Assembly (NCBI GenBank): GCA_036170915.1
Contig: JAVHQC010000030.1
Location: 66,421 to 130,420 of the forward strand
Direction: 5' to 3'
Length of the DNA stretch: 64,000 nt
Source: Cyanobacteria bacterium auto_48_18
Lineage (GTDB): Bacteria > Cyanobacteriota > Vampirovibrionia > Obscuribacterales > Obscuribacteraceae
The notes beneath the pieces were generated by a model, which saw only the letters and a list, made by a program, of their open reading frames with translations, was not told the DNA's origin and searched no databases. Shown here in pieces: positions 58,237 to 64,000 of the stretch. How positions within the stretch are numbered: the stretch's first letter is position 1; the number at the start of each line of letters is the position of its first letter. The position numbers and the translations under genes were made by a program.

Positions 58237-59049
58237 TCAACTGTCGCTTAAAAACTCAAACTCATACGGAGCTTCCGTTGTCGTTTCTTCTTCCTGCACC
58301 GGAAGGTGTATTCCATCAAGGGTGTGCATTAAATAGCTAGCCAATGCCATCACGCGAGACGCTTGCTGGCAGCTGAGCGGAGCGCTTTCAGGAATACCCT
58401 TATAACGTTTGAAGAACCCGGCAAGCAAATCGGAAATGCCTTCGTTTTCAGAGGCGGTGCTTTCTGCACTAAACAGCGGACCACCATCAGCATCAAAAGC
58501 CTTGCGTATAAGTTCTGCACCAGACTCTTTGATATTGCCACTTGTGCGCAACCGCACGGCGTCTTCCAGTTCTTTAACGGCCAGAGCAACAGCCGCGCCA
58601 TAATGACCCAGCTCAAAGGGTCTCCAGGTGGAATGATAAATAGCTGGATGCTGCAGCGCAGCAATATAATCGCCACATGGTGGTTCAGGAATTACCGCAG
58701 CCATTTTGCGAAAGCTCGCCAGTCGCTCCAGCCTTCCACCTACGATATATGGAAATTCGTCCAGGTCTCTTTCGAAATCATCAGCCTTTAGACTGGGCAC
58801 GAAATAAACATTGGATGCAAAAAATAGCGGAACAGATTCTGAGTAAAAGCAGCCCCTCAGCATCTCTGTCGTTTCAAGCACCCATGACCAATTTTGGCGT
58901 TTCGCCTGCTCCATCATTTCGCGAGAATTGGCTTTTGTTTGCAGCATACTGCGACCATTGTGGATTGCCAGCTCGATCGCTTGTTCGACCATTTCTTTTG
59001 GCCTGGCTAAAGTCAAACCAATTGAAGGTACGGGTGGAAGTTGGTTCAT
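58237..59049 (-). CDS. Protein with a C-terminal TIGR02391-like domain
   Basis: LQHPAI..F..GHYGAAVALAVKELEDAVR..GAELIRKAF..GPL..ENEGI..L.AG pattern. Confidence 0.65.
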   Translation of the reverse strand: MNQLPPVPSIGLTLARPKEMVEQAIELAIHNGRSMLQTKANSREMMEQAKRQNWSWVLETTEMLRGCFYSESVPLFFASNVYFVPSLKADDFERDLDEFPYIVGGRLERLASFRKMAAVIPEPPCGDYIAALQHPAIYHSTWRPFELGHYGAAVALAVKELEDAVRLRTSGNIKESGAELIRKAFDADGGPLFSAESTASENEGISDLLAGFFKRYKGIPESAPLSCQQASRVMALASYLMHTLDGIHLPVQEEETTTEAPYEFEFLSDS

Positions 59050-59110
59050 AGTCCCTCTGCAGCAACATAAGGAATCGAAGAAATTTTACCACCGCATAAT
59101 AGAGGAACAC

Positions 59111-59511
59111 TGTAGAAAACTCTATATACAACTGGTGATCTACACCATAGACATATGGTTCACGCGCTTGACTAACCTTGTGCATATCGAAAATAGCTCC
59201 TGGAGGCATTGTCTAAATTGTCAGCAGATATACAAAATATTTTCATCGGGGGACTTCTCAGCGCCGGCAGTTTCGCTATAATTACATGCATAAACGGTGA
59301 GCACTCACCAATCAATAAGTTGAGTGCTTTGAGCCGAGGGGTTAAGTGGAAACACCAGGTCTGCGCAGACCAGAAACTGTAGCGATAACCCGCTTACTGT
59401 GGATTCTGACTTGAAGCAGTGAGAAATATCGAGTCTACGCAATAGACTGTCAGACGATAGTAAAAAGACCGCCGCAGATTTATCTGGGTGGTCTTTTTAT
59501 TTGTACAATTT
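59111..59511 (+). repeat. ~400-bp non-coding repeat unit, copy 1 (promoter + structured RNA + terminator)
   Basis: Aligns with 60093-60492 and 63790-64000. Confidence 0.92.
59290..59498 (+). ncRNA. Unassigned structured RNA, copy 1 (~209 nt)
   Basis: TATAAT at 59277-59282, several stems, candidate pseudoknot, terminator 59462-59498; 11 substitutions versus copy 2. Confidence 0.75.
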
Positions 59512-59539
59512 TCGCTTGTGTTGATCATGAGGGCCAGGT

Positions 59540-59941
59540 ATGAATCATCGAAAGTCTTTTACATACTTGAGTGCACTTTGTATCATGTCCGGCTTTATCA
59601 ACGCCGGAGTTCAAGCCAAAGGGACAAAGTCCAAGTTAAGCAAACAAGAACACCACCAGAAAATGATGGCTCGCTTTGATGTCAATCACGACGGTAAGCT
59701 AGATGCTAACGAAAAGGCTCAAGTGCAGGTAATGCGAGAAGAGCATAAACGGCGCAAAGAGCAAAATGCAAACAGGGGCGCCATGGACCCGCAGAAAATG
59801 GCCAGACGACAAAAAATGATGCAAAAATTTGATACCAATGGCGATGGCACTCTCGACGCCAGCGAAAAATCAGCACTGCAAGCCTTCCGAGCGAAGAGAC
59901 GCCAAGCAATGGAAAGTAAGCGAGGACCAGCGCTTAAATAG
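59540..59941 (+). CDS. Secreted EF-hand calcium-binding protein
   Basis: Signal peptide; DVNHDGKLDANE and DTNGDGTLDASE loops. Confidence 0.88.
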   Translation: MNHRKSFTYLSALCIMSGFINAGVQAKGTKSKLSKQEHHQKMMARFDVNHDGKLDANEKAQVQVMREEHKRRKEQNANRGAMDPQKMARRQKMMQKFDTNGDGTLDASEKSALQAFRAKRRQAMESKRGPALK

Positions 59942-60005
59942 AAGATATAGCCGTACTCGCTGGCGGTCAGAGCTAGCCGGGGGAGGTCGTGAACGAATAG
60001 AATGG

Positions 60006-60048
60006 CCATTTAACATTGTAATTACGGTGTAATTACAATGTTAAATGG
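60006..60048. repeat. Perfect 20-bp inverted repeat with a 3-nt centre
   Basis: ccatttaacattgtaattac-ggt-gtaattacaatgttaaatgg. Confidence 0.9.
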
Positions 60049-60092
60049 TGTTTTTTAGCAAAAAAACCATGCGCTCTAGCCGAGGGCCGACC

Positions 60093-60492
60093 TGTGCATA
60101 ATTCTATATACAAATGAATATACTGAAGGTGAGCTGGTGGTTCACGAGCTTGGCTACCGCGCTTTATATAAAGAACAGCCCTGAAGTGCATCCTTCAAAT
60201 TGTCAGCAGATATGCATGATATTTTCATCGGGGGACTTTCTATCTCAACCGATCTGGCTATACTTATTACATAAGCGGTGAGCACACACCAATAAATAAG
60301 TTGAGTGCTTTGAGCCGAGGGGTTAAGTGGAAACATCAGGTCTGCGCAGACCAGAAACTGTAACGATAACCCGCTAACTGTGGATTCTGACTTGAAGCAG
60401 TAAGAAATATCGAGTCTACGCAATAGACTGTCAGCCGATAGTAATTAGACCACCGCAGATTTATCTGGGTGGTCTTTTTGTTTGTGCAATTT
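60093..60492 (+). repeat. ~400-bp non-coding repeat unit, copy 2
   Basis: Constant offset of +982 from copy 1 through the -10 box. Confidence 0.92.
60271..60479 (+). ncRNA. Unassigned structured RNA, copy 2
   Basis: TATACT at 60259-60264; same stems and terminator as copy 1. Confidence 0.75.
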
Positions 60493-60547
60493 AGAATGGG
60501 GTCATCCATAAGACTTTTAGGTCGATACAGATAAGCAGGGTCGGTTA

Positions 60548-61249
60548 TTGAAGCAATTTGTAAAAATCACAATGCTCGCCCTCGCTTGCCCGTGCCTAGC
60601 GTTGGCAGTTCTAGCATCTCTTCGATGCTTTGTGGAAGCACGCAAAATTCCCAGCACCTCGATGCAACCAACAATCATGGTTGGTGATCGAATTCTTTTA
60701 GAAAAAGTATCAAAATTGACTGGCCGACTGGCGGAGAGAGGGGCAATTATCGTCTTCTATCCGCCGCCCATGGTATTGCCGAATAGGCAAGACTTGAGTA
60801 TGGATATTCCCCATTTGCTTGGCCGTTCGACCGGTTTGCCAATTTTCCCGGTCGAACCTGCCTATATCAAACGGATAATTGCTACCGCTGGCGATACCGT
60901 CAAAATAAACAGCAATGGTGCTGTTTTTGTGAATGGCAAACTTCTTTCGGAGCCTTACTTAAAATTGAACGGCACGGATGAACTCACAACTTCACAAGAA
61001 ACAAGCGGATCCACAACAGTGCATAGTCAAATTAGGCCATTTCAAAACGTTAGCTCACCATTTGTGGTGCCCAAAGGTTCAGTCTTTGTGCTCAGCGATG
61101 ATCGTAAACATGCTACTCAAGACAGTCGAATGTTTGGCTTTGTAGATGAAAGCCGCATTATAGGTCGAGCATGGATTCTGATTACTTCGGCATCAATTCG
61201 CTACATGCGTGAGCCGAATTGGACACGGCCTGCCGACCTGCAAGATTAG
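60548..61249 (+). CDS. lepB: Signal peptidase I paralog
   Basis: IPSTSMQPT (Ser), YIKRII (Lys), divergent box E SDDR..QDSR. Confidence 0.85.
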   Translation: MKQFVKITMLALACPCLALAVLASLRCFVEARKIPSTSMQPTIMVGDRILLEKVSKLTGRLAERGAIIVFYPPPMVLPNRQDLSMDIPHLLGRSTGLPIFPVEPAYIKRIIATAGDTVKINSNGAVFVNGKLLSEPYLKLNGTDELTTSQETSGSTTVHSQIRPFQNVSSPFVVPKGSVFVLSDDRKHATQDSRMFGFVDESRIIGRAWILITSASIRYMREPNWTRPADLQD

Positions 61250-61280
61250 TGCTTATCGACACTTTATGTGTCAAACATTT

Positions 61281-62996
61281 CTACTTAACTTTCCCTATAA
61301 AGACACCGTAAGCCGGCAAAGTAAGCGACTTAAGATTCACGTTGCTTGATCCTACTTCGTACGAGGCCAGCAGCGGCGCAGCTGATTCTGCTTCGATGCC
61401 ATTTGAGTTCAAATCGAGCTGAACAACTTTGGACGCTGGTGTCATATTCAGTGCCACGACGACACTGCCTTTATCAGTCTTTCGCAAATAAGAAAGAACA
61501 TCAGGATTTTTTTCGTCGACGGCAACATACTTACCATGCATCAACGCATCTTCTGTTTTGCGAAGCCGAATCAACTGTTTGTAGAAGTTGAGTACCGAGT
61601 CTTTATCGGCTGATTCAACAGCAACGTTAACCTGTTTGTAGTTGGGCGAGACCGGCAGCCACGGCTTTGCGGTGCTAAATCCGGCATTGATGTCAGCGTT
61701 CCATTGCATCGGAGTGCGCTCGCCATCACGTCCGATTTCAGCGGGCCAACCAATTTTTCCAATTGGATCTTGTACTTCCTCTTTTGTTTTGGGATCGTTG
61801 TTCTGCATTCCCAGCTCTTCGCCGTAATACATCATTGGTGTTCCACGTAAAGTAAGAAGCAAGGTGGCGGTCAACTTAGCAATTTCATTGTTGTGAGCTT
61901 TGTCACCATATCTGACGTAATGGCGCACCTGATCGTGATTGCTGAAGAAATACAGAGGCCAACCTTTAGCGGGATTGTTGTCCCATTCTTCTATGCGCTT
62001 TCGAAACTCTGGTACAGATAATTTATTGATATAGGCCAAAATGAAATTCATAGGCAGTTGAACCTCATCGAGATCCTTGCCATAAGATTTTGAAATTTCA
62101 GCAATATCAGATCCGCTGGTTTCGCCTATCAGCACTCGGTCGCCAGGATACTTATCGAGGACAGCGCGCAACTCGCGCAGCACATCGTGAACCTCCGGCA
62201 ATTTATCGTTATGCAAATATTCGGTATTAGGATCGCCGTATTGATTCTTACCTTCGCGCACCGGATTATCTGGCAATTTAGGATCTTCAAATAATGTCTG
62301 CACAGCATCGAGCCTGAAGCCTGCAACGCCCTTGTCGAGCCAGAAACGAGCAGCATCATACATTGCGGTGCGCACTTCAGGGTTGCGCCAATTTAGATCA
62401 GGTTGTTCAGGATAGAAAAAGTGATAATTGTATTGATTAGTTTTTGGATACAACTTCCAGGCGGAACCACCAAACAATGAAATCCAGTTGTTCGGCGGAC
62501 CGCTGGCGGAACCATCTTTCCAGATGTACCAATCTCTTTTTGGATTGTCTTTTGAACTCGCCGATTCTACAAACCATGGATGTTTATCAGAGCTGTGATT
62601 CATAACAAAATCCATAATAATTTTGATATCACGCTTTTTCGCTTCGGCAAGAAGTTCATCGAAATCGGCCATGGTTCCGTACTCTGGTGCTATCGCTTTA
62701 TAGTCCGAAATGTCATAGCCGAAATCTACTTGCGGTGATGGATAGCAAGGAGTAATCCATAACGCGTCAACGCCCAGGTCTTTTAGATAATCCAACTTTG
62801 AGGTGATGCCCTTAATGTCACCCATGCCATTGTTATCAGAGTCAGCAAAGCTGCGCGGGTAAATTTCGTAAACCACCGCTTGTTTCCACCAGGGCTCAGC
62901 TTTGACTGGCTCGTTGGCCACGACTGTGGTTGCGAAGCCGCTAAACAGCGACAAAGCCATCAGCGCAACAAAAGATTTGCGAACTTTGCTAAACAT
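61281..62996 (-). CDS. Secreted GH13 alpha-glucosidase / oligo-1,6-glucosidase
   Basis: YEIYPRSF, DFGYDISDY, QPDLNW, GFRLDAV, IGE, SNHD, RDGERTPMQW; signal peptide. Confidence 0.92.
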   Translation of the reverse strand: MFSKVRKSFVALMALSLFSGFATTVVANEPVKAEPWWKQAVVYEIYPRSFADSDNNGMGDIKGITSKLDYLKDLGVDALWITPCYPSPQVDFGYDISDYKAIAPEYGTMADFDELLAEAKKRDIKIIMDFVMNHSSDKHPWFVESASSKDNPKRDWYIWKDGSASGPPNNWISLFGGSAWKLYPKTNQYNYHFFYPEQPDLNWRNPEVRTAMYDAARFWLDKGVAGFRLDAVQTLFEDPKLPDNPVREGKNQYGDPNTEYLHNDKLPEVHDVLRELRAVLDKYPGDRVLIGETSGSDIAEISKSYGKDLDEVQLPMNFILAYINKLSVPEFRKRIEEWDNNPAKGWPLYFFSNHDQVRHYVRYGDKAHNNEIAKLTATLLLTLRGTPMMYYGEELGMQNNDPKTKEEVQDPIGKIGWPAEIGRDGERTPMQWNADINAGFSTAKPWLPVSPNYKQVNVAVESADKDSVLNFYKQLIRLRKTEDALMHGKYVAVDEKNPDVLSYLRKTDKGSVVVALNMTPASKVVQLDLNSNGIEAESAAPLLASYEVGSSNVNLKSLTLPAYGVFIGKVK

Positions 62997-63009
62997 GGTT
63001 TTCTCCGCC

Positions 63010-63663
63010 TTAATTTTCAATCTTTATAGACTTAGCCAGGGTTTTCAATTGTTTGATGCTTTCGTCGTAGACTTCCTGGCGGTCGGTCGTGGTCAAAGAA
63101 TAGATACCGTCTTTTACAGGAATCGTCACCACAAAACCGCGCAAGTTGCCCGCACCACCCAGAGCACCACTAAATTCAGTGCCGGCTTCACGCCTGCCGT
63201 TGGCAAGCTCCAGAGTGAATGGCTCTTCTTTATAGTCAGAGAGGCGCTGGCGAAAAGGATGCAACATTCCTTTCATCAATTCATCTTTGTTTGGCACCTT
63301 CTCAGACGCGCCACCATTAACGATCAAAATTGAAAAAACATTTTGTCCTAAGTTTTTACGCTCAGGCCCAAGAAATGCAAAAGTTCTACTGTTGCCTCGA
63401 TTTAATACCTGTAGTTTTGTTGGAGCACTGGCATGGATAGCGAATTTATGACCTTCAAATGTGAACGTTTGAGGGGGCGGTTGCAAACTAACTGTTGGTG
63501 TCTCGTCTGCACTTTTTATTCCTTCTTTAACTGCTTCATTATCTTTGTCAGTAATGGGGCCTTCACCATTGTTCGCGCTGCATGACTGCATCACAAAACA
63601 AACAGAAATTATTGACAGACTGGCGGTACAAAATCTAAAACAGTTTTTCCAATTCAGCATCAT
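63010..63663 (-). CDS. Hypothetical lipoprotein
   Basis: Lipobox-like MQSC. Start uncertain (63660-63687). Confidence 0.65.
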   Translation of the reverse strand: MMLNWKNCFRFCTASLSIISVCFVMQSCSANNGEGPITDKDNEAVKEGIKSADETPTVSLQPPPQTFTFEGHKFAIHASAPTKLQVLNRGNSRTFAFLGPERKNLGQNVFSILIVNGGASEKVPNKDELMKGMLHPFRQRLSDYKEEPFTLELANGRREAGTEFSGALGGAGNLRGFVVTIPVKDGIYSLTTTDRQEVYDESIKQLKTLAKSIKIEN

Positions 63664-63789
63664 CAACCCTTTGTATTTGTCCCGCATTGACCGGTTCGTT
63701 TTTGATGAAATTATGATACCAGCGCTTAAGGCCGCCCTATCTTTGCGCATGCTCGAATTGCGCCACGGCACTGGCATAGATTAGCTGCT

Positions 63790-64000
63790 TGTTCATAAGT
63801 GCATATACAAACGAAGTTGGTTATGGTGCAAGCCTGGTTCAAAATCTTGACTAGCTCAGCATATATGCGAATCGACCACTAAAGCCACTCGCAGAATTGT
63901 CAGCAGATATGCACTATATTTTCATCGGGGGACTTCCTATCTCAACCGATCTGGCTATACTTATTACATAAGCGGTGAGCACACACCAATAAATAAGTTG
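63790..64000 (+). repeat. Repeat unit copy 3 (promoter and first ~33 nt of the RNA; truncated by the window end)
   Basis: Offset +4679 from copy 1; near-identical to copy 2 from 63895 onward; TATACT at 63956-63961. Confidence 0.9.

What the first reader, a model, noticed from the sequence alone, without database searches (positions are those of the whole stretch)
59290..60479. Multi-copy, unassigned ~209-nt structured RNA with its own promoter and terminator (3 copies in 5 kb)
Seen: 59290-59498 and 60271-60479 differ by 11 substitutions and no indels, and a third copy starts at about 63968. Each copy sits 7-8 nt after TATAAT/TATACT; the two complete copies end in a hairpin plus U-tract. Copy 1 stems: gagcactca/tgagtgctt (59299-59329); gggtta/taaccc (59339-59391) enclosing gtg-GAAA-cac and ggtct-gcgc-agacc; cttactg/cagtgag (59393-59423); tatcg/cgata enclosing agtcta-cgcaa-tagact (59427-59459). 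Loop tctgac (59405-59410) is complementary to the bulge gtcaga (59449-59454), a candidate pseudoknot. Two changes preserve pairing (G-C to G-U in the GAAA hairpin, G-U to A-U in the terminator); a few others create single mismatches. Neighbouring genes are unrelated and no conserved ORF is present. Inference: a family of independently transcribed ncRNA genes (ribozyme, RNP scaffold or sRNA). I do not recognise it as a known class.
Basis: partly seen in the sequence, partly recalled or inferred. Interest (0 to 1): 0.92.

Follow-up and report, generated by a model that had tools for sequence, protein, structure and literature searches.

The report
Full-length poplar-1 RNA, probably self-pairing
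These repeats are copies of a catalogued but unexplained bacterial RNA (poplar-1); it turns out to be longer than catalogued, typical of one little-studied bacterial order, and its sequence changes suggest that two molecules pair with each other.

Summary
Both complete copies exceed the cut-off for Rfam poplar-1 (RF03041; 118 and 116.7 bits against 110.5), a family of unknown function.

The follow-up adds four things. (1) Host: found in 102 of 107 genomes of the window's order (Obscuribacterales by record titles), 1-12 copies each; no convincing hit in 96 genomes from the rest of the class. (2) The gene is about 210 nt, not 141: a 5' kink-turn hairpin and a 3' terminator lie outside the Rfam model, and the pseudoknot covaries. 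(3) It is a stand-alone gene: dedicated promoter motifs, mixed neighbour orientation, and one metatranscriptome covering only the RNA. (4) One tetraloop (59363-59366) stays self-complementary (GCGC, ACGU, GCGU, GUAC, AAUU). Its two adjacent central bases changed together on 5 branches. Adjacent bases cannot pair within one molecule; the same signature marks cryo-EM-proven dimer contacts in OLE and GOLLD.

Best reading: an abundant RNA that homodimerises, probably a scaffold. The partner and role are inferred, not shown.

The parts
59156..59170 (+). Far upstream conserved DNA motif of copy 1 (candidate activator site)
   Evidence: Motif ends 123-126 nt before the kink-turn in 98 of 163 copies; any match 123 of 163 against 35 +/- 6 in shuffles; logo. 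Role inferred.
59248..59282 (+). Copy 1 promoter: G-run motif (59248-59256) and -10 box TATAAT (59277-59282)
   Evidence: G-run motif ends 20-21 nt before the -10 box in 122 of 164 copies; the pattern precedes 7 of 7 copies with an upstream flank in this genome.
59290..59502 (+). Copy 1, full-length poplar-1 RNA gene (about 210 nt; Rfam model covers 59328-59464)
   Evidence: 118 bits against cut-off 110.5; 203.5 bits with the full-length model. Ends inferred from promoter and terminator.
59295..59336 (+). 5' hairpin with a standard kink-turn (3-nt bulge 59328-59330, tandem G.A/A.G), mostly outside the Rfam model
   Evidence: Standard tandem pairs in 161 of 165 copies and 66 of 74 copies that lack the search pattern; flanking stems covary.
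59339..59391 (+). P2 arm with a two-fold symmetric 10x10 internal loop (59348-59357 and 59372-59381; each strand R-G-N-N-A-C-N-N-Y-A)
59358..59371 (+). Apical hairpin with self-complementary tetraloop GCGC (59363-59366): predicted intermolecular pairing site
   Evidence: Self-complementary in 164 of 165 and 73 of 74 copies; central bases change together.
59393..59423 (+). P3 hairpin; loop bases 59405-59410 form the 5' strand of the pseudoknot
59427..59459 (+). P4 arm; bulge 59449-59454 forms the 3' strand of the pseudoknot
   Evidence: 6 or more pairs in 82 of 86 sequences; 5.7 Watson-Crick pairs with the own partner against 3.5 with swapped partners.
59466..59502 (+). 3' terminator hairpin with conserved bulged G (59474) and U-tract, outside the Rfam model
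   Evidence: 97.5% of cells paired, 10 of 12 pairs with double changes; G at the bulge in 83 of 86.
59540..59941 (+). EF-hand protein gene between copies 1 and 2 (neighbour, not part of the element)
60138..60264 (+). Copy 2 upstream region: far motif 60138-60152, G-run motif 60230-60238, -10 box 60259-60264
60271..60483 (+). Copy 2, full-length poplar-1 RNA gene (palindromic loop 60344-60347)
   Evidence: 116.7 bits; RNA-seq contigs cover it from 60274.
63927..64000 (+). Copy 3: promoter (63927-63961) and first 33 nt of the RNA (63968-64000), cut by the contig end

Best explanation
Each repeat is a complete gene for the poplar-1 RNA. A dedicated promoter drives a transcript of about 210 nt that ends at its own terminator (shown by conservation; ends inferred). 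The RNA folds into a kink-turn hairpin, an arm with a symmetric internal loop and a palindromic apical loop, two arms locked by a pseudoknot, and a terminal hairpin (shown by covariation). Two molecules then pair through the palindromic loop, as a kissing contact or a short duplex (inferred from adjacent-base covariation). The dimer most likely acts in trans as an abundant scaffold or sponge for a protein not yet identified, as OLE RNA does (inferred by analogy, the weakest step). Copy number rises by local DNA duplication, which changes dosage. Step confidences: family identity and stand-alone gene about 0.95; intermolecular pairing about 0.65; protein-scaffold role about 0.4.
For: Rfam hits. 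Covariation score 0.453 against 0.197 shuffled, 49 of 60 pairs with double changes; 0.494 against 0.206 in a second set. Downstream neighbour of 113 copies: 62 same strand, 44 opposite, 7 another copy. RNA-seq contigs cover 6 of 30 bins, all on the two RNA genes, depth up to 580-740, and none on the flanking genes. Loop classes in 165 copies: GCGC 128, ACGU 16, GCGU 12, GUAC 7, AAUU 1, non-palindromic 1. In 107 genomes with 365 pattern matches, none has C followed by a non-G at the loop centre. On a tree of 230 copies, all 5 changes at loop position 3 fall on branches where position 2 also changed; 0 of 200,000 random placements do so. Kretsch et al. use the same criterion for cryo-EM-resolved contacts of OLE and GOLLD. 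The palindrome survives where the stem below it is mismatched. Tandem kinase-plus-RNA units show duplication at DNA level.
Against: No experiment on this RNA was seen. The central double change is rare: 4 origins of UA (3 forced by well-supported branches) and 1 of AU; a single origin of GUAC is not rejected (p-AU 0.0502). Two copies break the palindrome. The null is my own and ignores multi-base mutation at palindromes. No partner protein was found: L7Ae-family 0 of 28 genomes of the order, CsrA 0 of 5, Ro60 2 of 5. Five of 107 genomes show no copy, two of them 92% and 97% complete, so it may be dispensable. Expression evidence is one run, contigs only, partly from relatives.
Confidence: 0.55

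Rival explanations
1. A monomeric trans-acting structured sRNA. The palindromic tetraloop is a stable loop or a protein-binding site, and its double changes come from template-switch mutation at a DNA palindrome.
For: The outer loop pair could close a two-base loop within one molecule. GCGC dominates (192 of 230). The similar-sized raiA RNA is a monomer (passage).
Against: The inner two bases are adjacent, yet changed together 5 times with no single change kept. The stems keep G.U pairs and mismatches, which palindrome-perfecting mutation would erase (inference).
Confidence: 0.22
2. A ribozyme (self-cleaving or trans-acting) whose core is the pseudoknotted junction.
For: Compact pseudoknotted fold with invariant unpaired purines at the helix junctions.
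Against: No Rfam ribozyme family matches down to E = 10. The pseudoknot and its loop vary freely in sequence. Own promoter and terminator make self-processing unnecessary (inference). No linked gene family.
Confidence: 0.08
3. [quoted passage not shown]
For: Two-fold symmetric loop with G at position 2 and A at position 5 in both pentamers. A kink-turn is present, as in T-boxes.
Against: The defining AGNNA...UGNNA pattern (Lehmann et al.) is not met: position 1 of the second pentamer is U in 1 of 86 sequences and the first is mostly G. No specifier or antiterminator element was seen.
Confidence: 0.07
4. A cis-regulatory leader (riboswitch or attenuator) controlling the downstream gene through the terminator.
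For: Kink-turn plus pseudoknot plus terminator is a riboswitch-like inventory. Both complete window copies are followed by same-strand genes.
Against: 51 of 113 copies have no same-strand ORF next downstream. Four copies lie in a row, three of them about 500 nt apart. 228 flanking ORFs fall into 139 clusters.
Confidence: 0.03
5. A non-autonomous mobile element or IS end.
For: Variable copy number and position; copies often sit at contig breaks.
Against: No transposase among the 10 neighbours scanned. Copies carry promoter motifs up to about 130 nt upstream. Syntenic copies recur across species (clusters of 17 and 9 flanking proteins). No match in the phage or plasmid collections. Target-site duplications were not formally tested.
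Confidence: 0.03
6. A divergent stand-in for a housekeeping RNA (RNase P, SRP, tmRNA or 6S).
For: Near-universal in the order and abundant. This assembly lacks an RNase P RNA match.
Against: Normal RNase P RNA is in 20 of 20 high-quality relatives, and this 86%-complete assembly also lacks rnpA. SRP RNA and tmRNA are present. Separate weak 6S-like matches occur in 11 of 27 relatives of the order.
Confidence: 0.02

Closest known systems
poplar-1 RNA motif (Rfam RF03041, typed 'Gene; sRNA'; origin in Weinberg et al. 2017 is recalled, not seen)
   Same: Same family: full 1-141 model match above cut-off, same P2-P4 core.
   Different: The model starts inside the kink-turn and ends before the terminator, so it lacks about 70 nt. 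It draws the kink-turn's 3' strand unpaired and shows no intermolecular contact. The host order was not found in print by my searches. The original supplement was unreadable and may already show the pseudoknot.
OLE RNA dimer and GOLLD/ROOL cages (Kretsch et al., 10.1101/2024.12.08.627333, passages)
   Same: Symmetric kissing loops whose adjacent bases covary between palindromes (OLE L9.3, GOLLD L21a); stand-alone structured bacterial RNAs.
   Different: No Rfam match to these families. poplar-1 is about a third of their size or less, and only one candidate bridge is evident.
manA and EGFOA oligomers (10.64898/2026.07.01.735769, parts 1-2 of 5 read)
   Same: Precedent that Rfam motifs under 200 nt form defined oligomers through kissing loops or strand exchange.
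   Different: Different families; those contacts join different loops or exchanged strands, not one palindromic loop.
T-box Stem I / RNase P J11/12-J12/11 double T-loop (PMC3664808, parts 1-2 of 5 read)
   Same: Two-fold symmetric purine-rich loops with G2 and A5; kink-turn as in T-boxes.
   Different: The A/U rule at position 1 is not met; not a leader of synthetase genes.
Multi-copy sponge sRNAs (CsrB/RsmZ type; recalled)
   Same: Several copies, own terminator, conserved upstream activating motif.
   Different: No CsrA in 5 genomes tested; compact tertiary fold rather than repeated GGA hairpins.

Membership tests
poplar-1 (RF03041) | Covariance-model score at or above 110.5 bits over the whole model | tested here: met
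   118 and 116.7 bits, positions 1-141.
poplar-1 (RF03041) | Transcribed small RNA | tested here: inconclusive
   One metatranscriptome covers only the RNA genes, but as contigs and partly from relatives; poplar-1 reads reported in drinking-water RNA (passage).
Standard kink-turn (Huang et al., PMC8191799, part 1 of 5 read) | 3-nt bulge followed by tandem G.A and A.G, flanked by two helices | tested here: met
   161 of 165 and 66 of 74 copies. The bulged strand was part of the first search pattern, so the second count is the less biased one.
Standard kink-turn | Kinked geometry in metal ions or with L7Ae-type protein | not testable with these tools
   -1b:-1n is C:G in 157 of 165 (favourable); 3b:3n is G.U, not covered by the three rules read. 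No L7Ae homologue in 28 genomes of the order.
Homo-oligomeric RNAs with symmetric kissing loops (OLE/GOLLD type contact) | Palindromic loop with covariation of adjacent bases | tested here: met
   criterion.
Homo-oligomeric RNAs with symmetric kissing loops (OLE/GOLLD type contact) | Oligomer shown physically | not testable with these tools
   Needs native gel, mass photometry or cryo-EM.
OLE / ROOL / GOLLD / raiA families | Match to their Rfam models | tested here: not met
   No such hit down to E = 10 in 58500-64000.
[quoted passage not shown] | AGNNA ... UGNNA consensus | tested here: not met
   Both pentamers are R-G-N-N-A; U at position 1 of the second in 1 of 86.
Riboswitch / cis-leader | Consistently upstream of same-strand, functionally related genes | tested here: not met
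   62 of 113 same strand; 139 clusters among 228 flanking ORFs.
Self-cleaving ribozymes | Match to a known ribozyme model | tested here: not met
Self-cleaving ribozymes | Self-cleavage activity | not testable with these tools
   Bench assay needed.
IS end / MITE | Adjacent transposase | tested here: not met
   None in 10 neighbours scanned in this genome; the 228 flanking ORFs of relatives were clustered but not scanned against Pfam.
IS end / MITE | Target-site duplication, empty sites | not tested
   No strain-level comparison was run.
Csr/Rsm sponge RNAs | CsrA in the host | tested here: not met
   0 of 5 genomes.
Y RNA | Ro60 co-occurs with the RNA | tested here: not met
   TROVE in 2 of 5 genomes that all carry the RNA.

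The most novel reading that the evidence does not exclude
poplar-1 is a compact RNA that self-assembles into dimers or larger closed or filamentous oligomers in Obscuribacterales, and paralogues in one genome carry different palindromic keys (G016 has GUAC, ACGU and GCGC copies) that sort them into separate assemblies. That would be a natural, genome-encoded specificity code for RNA quaternary structure in an abundant RNA.
Probability: 0.25. Interest if true: 0.75.

Novelty: new member of a known kind. Interest (0 to 1): 0.5.

Why it matters
The family is catalogued, so this is not a new RNA class. But an orphan motif gains a host lineage, true gene boundaries, a kink-turn that a published inspection of the 224 motifs did not list (it named four others), dedicated promoter motifs and a precise, cheap test of self-assembly. 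A ~210-nt RNA with a covariation-supported symmetric contact is a ready cryo-EM target in the active field of RNA-only assemblies. It may also be an abundant RNA of a bacterial order about whose RNA biology my searches found nothing.

Tried and rejected
RNase P replacement: prompted by no match in this assembly, rejected by relatives. SRP, tmRNA and 6S replacement: rejected. GAAA tetraloop hairpin: rejected. Canonical double T-loop: consensus not met. L7Ae, CsrA and Ro60 as obligate partners: not supported. Phage or plasmid origin: no match; of 2 viral-contig pattern matches one is a truncated true copy and one is chance. Remote homologues: 3 of 96 other class genomes gave only about 19-bit matches; of 11 one-mismatch pattern matches in 400 phylum genomes, the 10 checked score under 15 bits. 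A wider regulon for the promoter motif: only 5 other genomic matches against 15-24 in shuffles. Divergent copies in the five negative genomes: none in 11 loci checked; the M16-peptidase query found nothing there at the strict cut-off used. Co-folding energy of two copies (-19.9 kcal/mol) is trivial for any palindromic hairpin and is not used. The pseudoknot part mis-parsed most sequences and was replaced; the nhmmer step printed nothing. Earlier scan notes: nothing relevant. Zero RNA cover on flanking genes does not prove they are silent, nor that this exact organism is in the run.

Full report
OBSERVATION. The two complete repeats are real: 209 nt, 11 substitutions, no indel. A third starts at 63968 and is cut by the contig end; the next-numbered contig opens with the 3' end of a copy, so the assembly probably broke inside it (inference). 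Both copies fold better than shuffles.

IDENTITY. An Rfam scan of the whole window gives two hits above cut-off, both poplar-1 (RF03041), at 59328-59464 and 60309-60445. Print coverage is thin. 'poplar-1' occurs in one paper of the library, a drinking-water preprint that lists it among RNAs enriched in the intracellular fraction (10.1101/2025.10.18.683149, passages). 'RF03041' occurs in none, and host-centred searches gave nothing relevant. The main text of Weinberg et al. 2017 (PMC5737381, term search only) does not name it and its supplement could not be read. That the motif comes from that paper is recalled. Anything below on the core fold, the pseudoknot included, may already be in that supplement.

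DISTRIBUTION. This genome has 6 complete copies. The Rfam model hits 24 of 24 genomes of the family, 3 of 3 of a second family in the order, and 0 of 13 others in the class. An exact pattern finds 365 matches in 85 of 107 genomes of the order. A full-length model built here recovers 17 of the other 22, up to 12 copies per genome, giving 102 of 107. Among 96 genomes of other families in the class, 3 give only about 19-bit matches. The last group was not checked one by one; one of them shares flanking protein clusters with the order's loci. The host assignment therefore rests on titles plus the kinship labels of the genome tool.

ANATOMY. I aligned 86 representatives (under 93% identity) of 150 distinct full-length copies; 26 of 180 candidate copies were dropped for missing or unparsed ends. 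All ten helices hold: 93.8% of cells paired, 49 of 60 pairs with double changes, covariation 0.453 against 0.197 +/- 0.005 in shuffles and about 0.07 with slid partners. These shuffles ignore relatedness. A second set of 75 copies, 74 of which lack the search pattern, gives 0.494 against 0.206, though that alignment is fitted to the model. The pseudoknot has 6 or more pairs in 82 of 86 sequences, in many sequence variants, and loses pairs when partners are swapped.

Two elements lie outside the Rfam model. The first is a standard kink-turn at the 5' end: tandem G.A/A.G after a 3-nt bulge in 161 of 165 and 66 of 74 copies, with compensatory changes in both flanking stems. Huang et al. inspected the 224 motifs and reported four other kink-turns (PMC8191799, part 1 of 5). 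The second is the terminator with a bulged G in 83 of 86.

A STAND-ALONE GENE. The -10 box ends 11-12 nt before the kink-turn in 133 of 164 copies. A G-run motif ends 20-21 nt before the -10 box in 122 of 164. A far motif ends 123-126 nt upstream in 98 of 163. The proximal pattern marks 7 of 7 copies here and otherwise occurs at or below chance. The next feature downstream is a same-strand ORF for 62, an opposite-strand ORF for 44 and another copy for 7 of 113 copies with enough flank (heuristic ORF calls). Flanking ORFs are diverse; the two largest clusters (17 and 9) mark syntenic positions beside what look like an M16 peptidase and a UbiD-like gene (labels by eye). One metatranscriptome was found. 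Its 25 contigs cover only the two RNA genes, including the 5' hairpin from 60274, at depth up to 580-740, with no cover on the flanking genes. Contigs give neither strand nor ends, several differ from this genome, and it is one study.

HOW COPIES MULTIPLY. In G086 nine copies lie in one 19-kb stretch, most alternating with paralogous kinase-like genes; the full-length kinase-like proteins are about 36-52% identical while the RNA regions keep 82-94%. In G019 four copies lie in a row. This is local DNA duplication with promoter attached, not transposition (inference). No transposase was among 10 neighbours scanned, and phage and plasmid collections gave no match.

THE PALINDROMIC LOOP. The apical tetraloop is self-complementary in 164 of 165 copies (GCGC 128, ACGU 16, GCGU 12, GUAC 7, AAUU 1) and in 73 of 74 of the second set. 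That count includes loci fetched on purpose for unusual loops. A directed search of 107 genomes found no C followed by a non-G. It found 24 matches without C at position 2: 6 GUAC, 1 non-palindromic outlier and 17 register shifts that keep GCGC. A metagenome scan for the same gave 2 matches, GUAC and AAUU. On a tree of 230 copies with the loop masked (one copy with an insertion left out), position 3 changes 5 times, each on a branch where position 2 also changes. Those branches hold 5% of tree length, and 0 of 200,000 random placements match this. Adjacent bases cannot pair within one strand. Kretsch et al. apply exactly this argument to OLE L9.3 and GOLLD L21a, contacts seen by cryo-EM (10.1101/2024.12.08.627333, passages).

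Against this: the events are few, a single origin of GUAC is not rejected (p = 0.0502), two copies break the palindrome, and template switching could make double changes, although the stems keep wobbles and mismatches.

MECHANISM. Shown: membership, fold, promoter and terminator conservation, order-wide multi-copy presence. Strongly inferred: trans action and pairing of two molecules through the loop. Weakly inferred: a protein-scaffold or sponge role. No partner was found (L7Ae 0 of 28, CsrA 0 of 5, Ro60 2 of 5). The symmetric loop resembles a double T-loop but fails its A/U rule (PMC3664808, parts 1-2 of 5; PMC4919913, passages). Housekeeping RNAs exist separately. Short RNA oligomers have precedent (10.64898/2026.07.01.735769, parts 1-2 of 5; PMC12990946, passages). 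The JAR3D Rfam paper does not name poplar-1 in its main text (PMC13085918, passages). Supplements of these papers were not seen.

VERDICT. New members of a known, functionally unexplained family, with useful extensions and one sharp, testable structural prediction. Interest 0.5.

Noticed in passing
L267-L268 (G086:C8:163856-182617) and L315-L316 (G087:C10): Arrays of 9 and 12 RNA copies; in G086 most alternate with convergent, diverged Ser/Thr-kinase-like paralogues (label by eye), a tandem gene-plus-RNA amplification.
   Followed up: partly
window 60005-60049: A 20-pair AT-rich perfect inverted repeat after the EF-hand gene, terminator-like on both strands.
   Followed up: no
G000:C36:211971-212176 (L001): A divergent sixth copy with a non-standard kink-turn (A.C in place of G.A), transcribed away from tRNA-Thr(CGU) about 200 nt off.
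   Followed up: partly
L221:1500 region (G053:C51): A highly divergent paralogue with a non-palindromic loop; the other six pattern matches in that genome have the usual C and G at the loop centre.
   Followed up: partly
L338, L339 (G119, G118): The UbiD-like gene match holds one in-frame TGA in both genomes of one genus; gene end, split gene or recoding not examined.
   Followed up: no
L182:1-178: A 2.6-kb viral-collection contig starts inside a copy whose 3' part is replaced by other sequence.
   Followed up: partly
G000:C33:15652-16458 and 164122-165603: Two arrays of 9 tRNA genes each.
   Followed up: no
G000 whole assembly: RNase P RNA and rnpA are both missing from this 86%-complete assembly but present in most relatives; 6S matches across the class are all below the Rfam cut-off.
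   Followed up: yes
G000 ends of contigs C1, C5, C11, C30, C34 and of C8, C10, C12: Two shared repeat sequences at contig ends, probably collapsed insertion sequences.
   Followed up: no
G067, G083, G084, G118, G119: Five genomes in three genera of the family with no detectable copy; useful negatives for partner profiling.
   Followed up: partly
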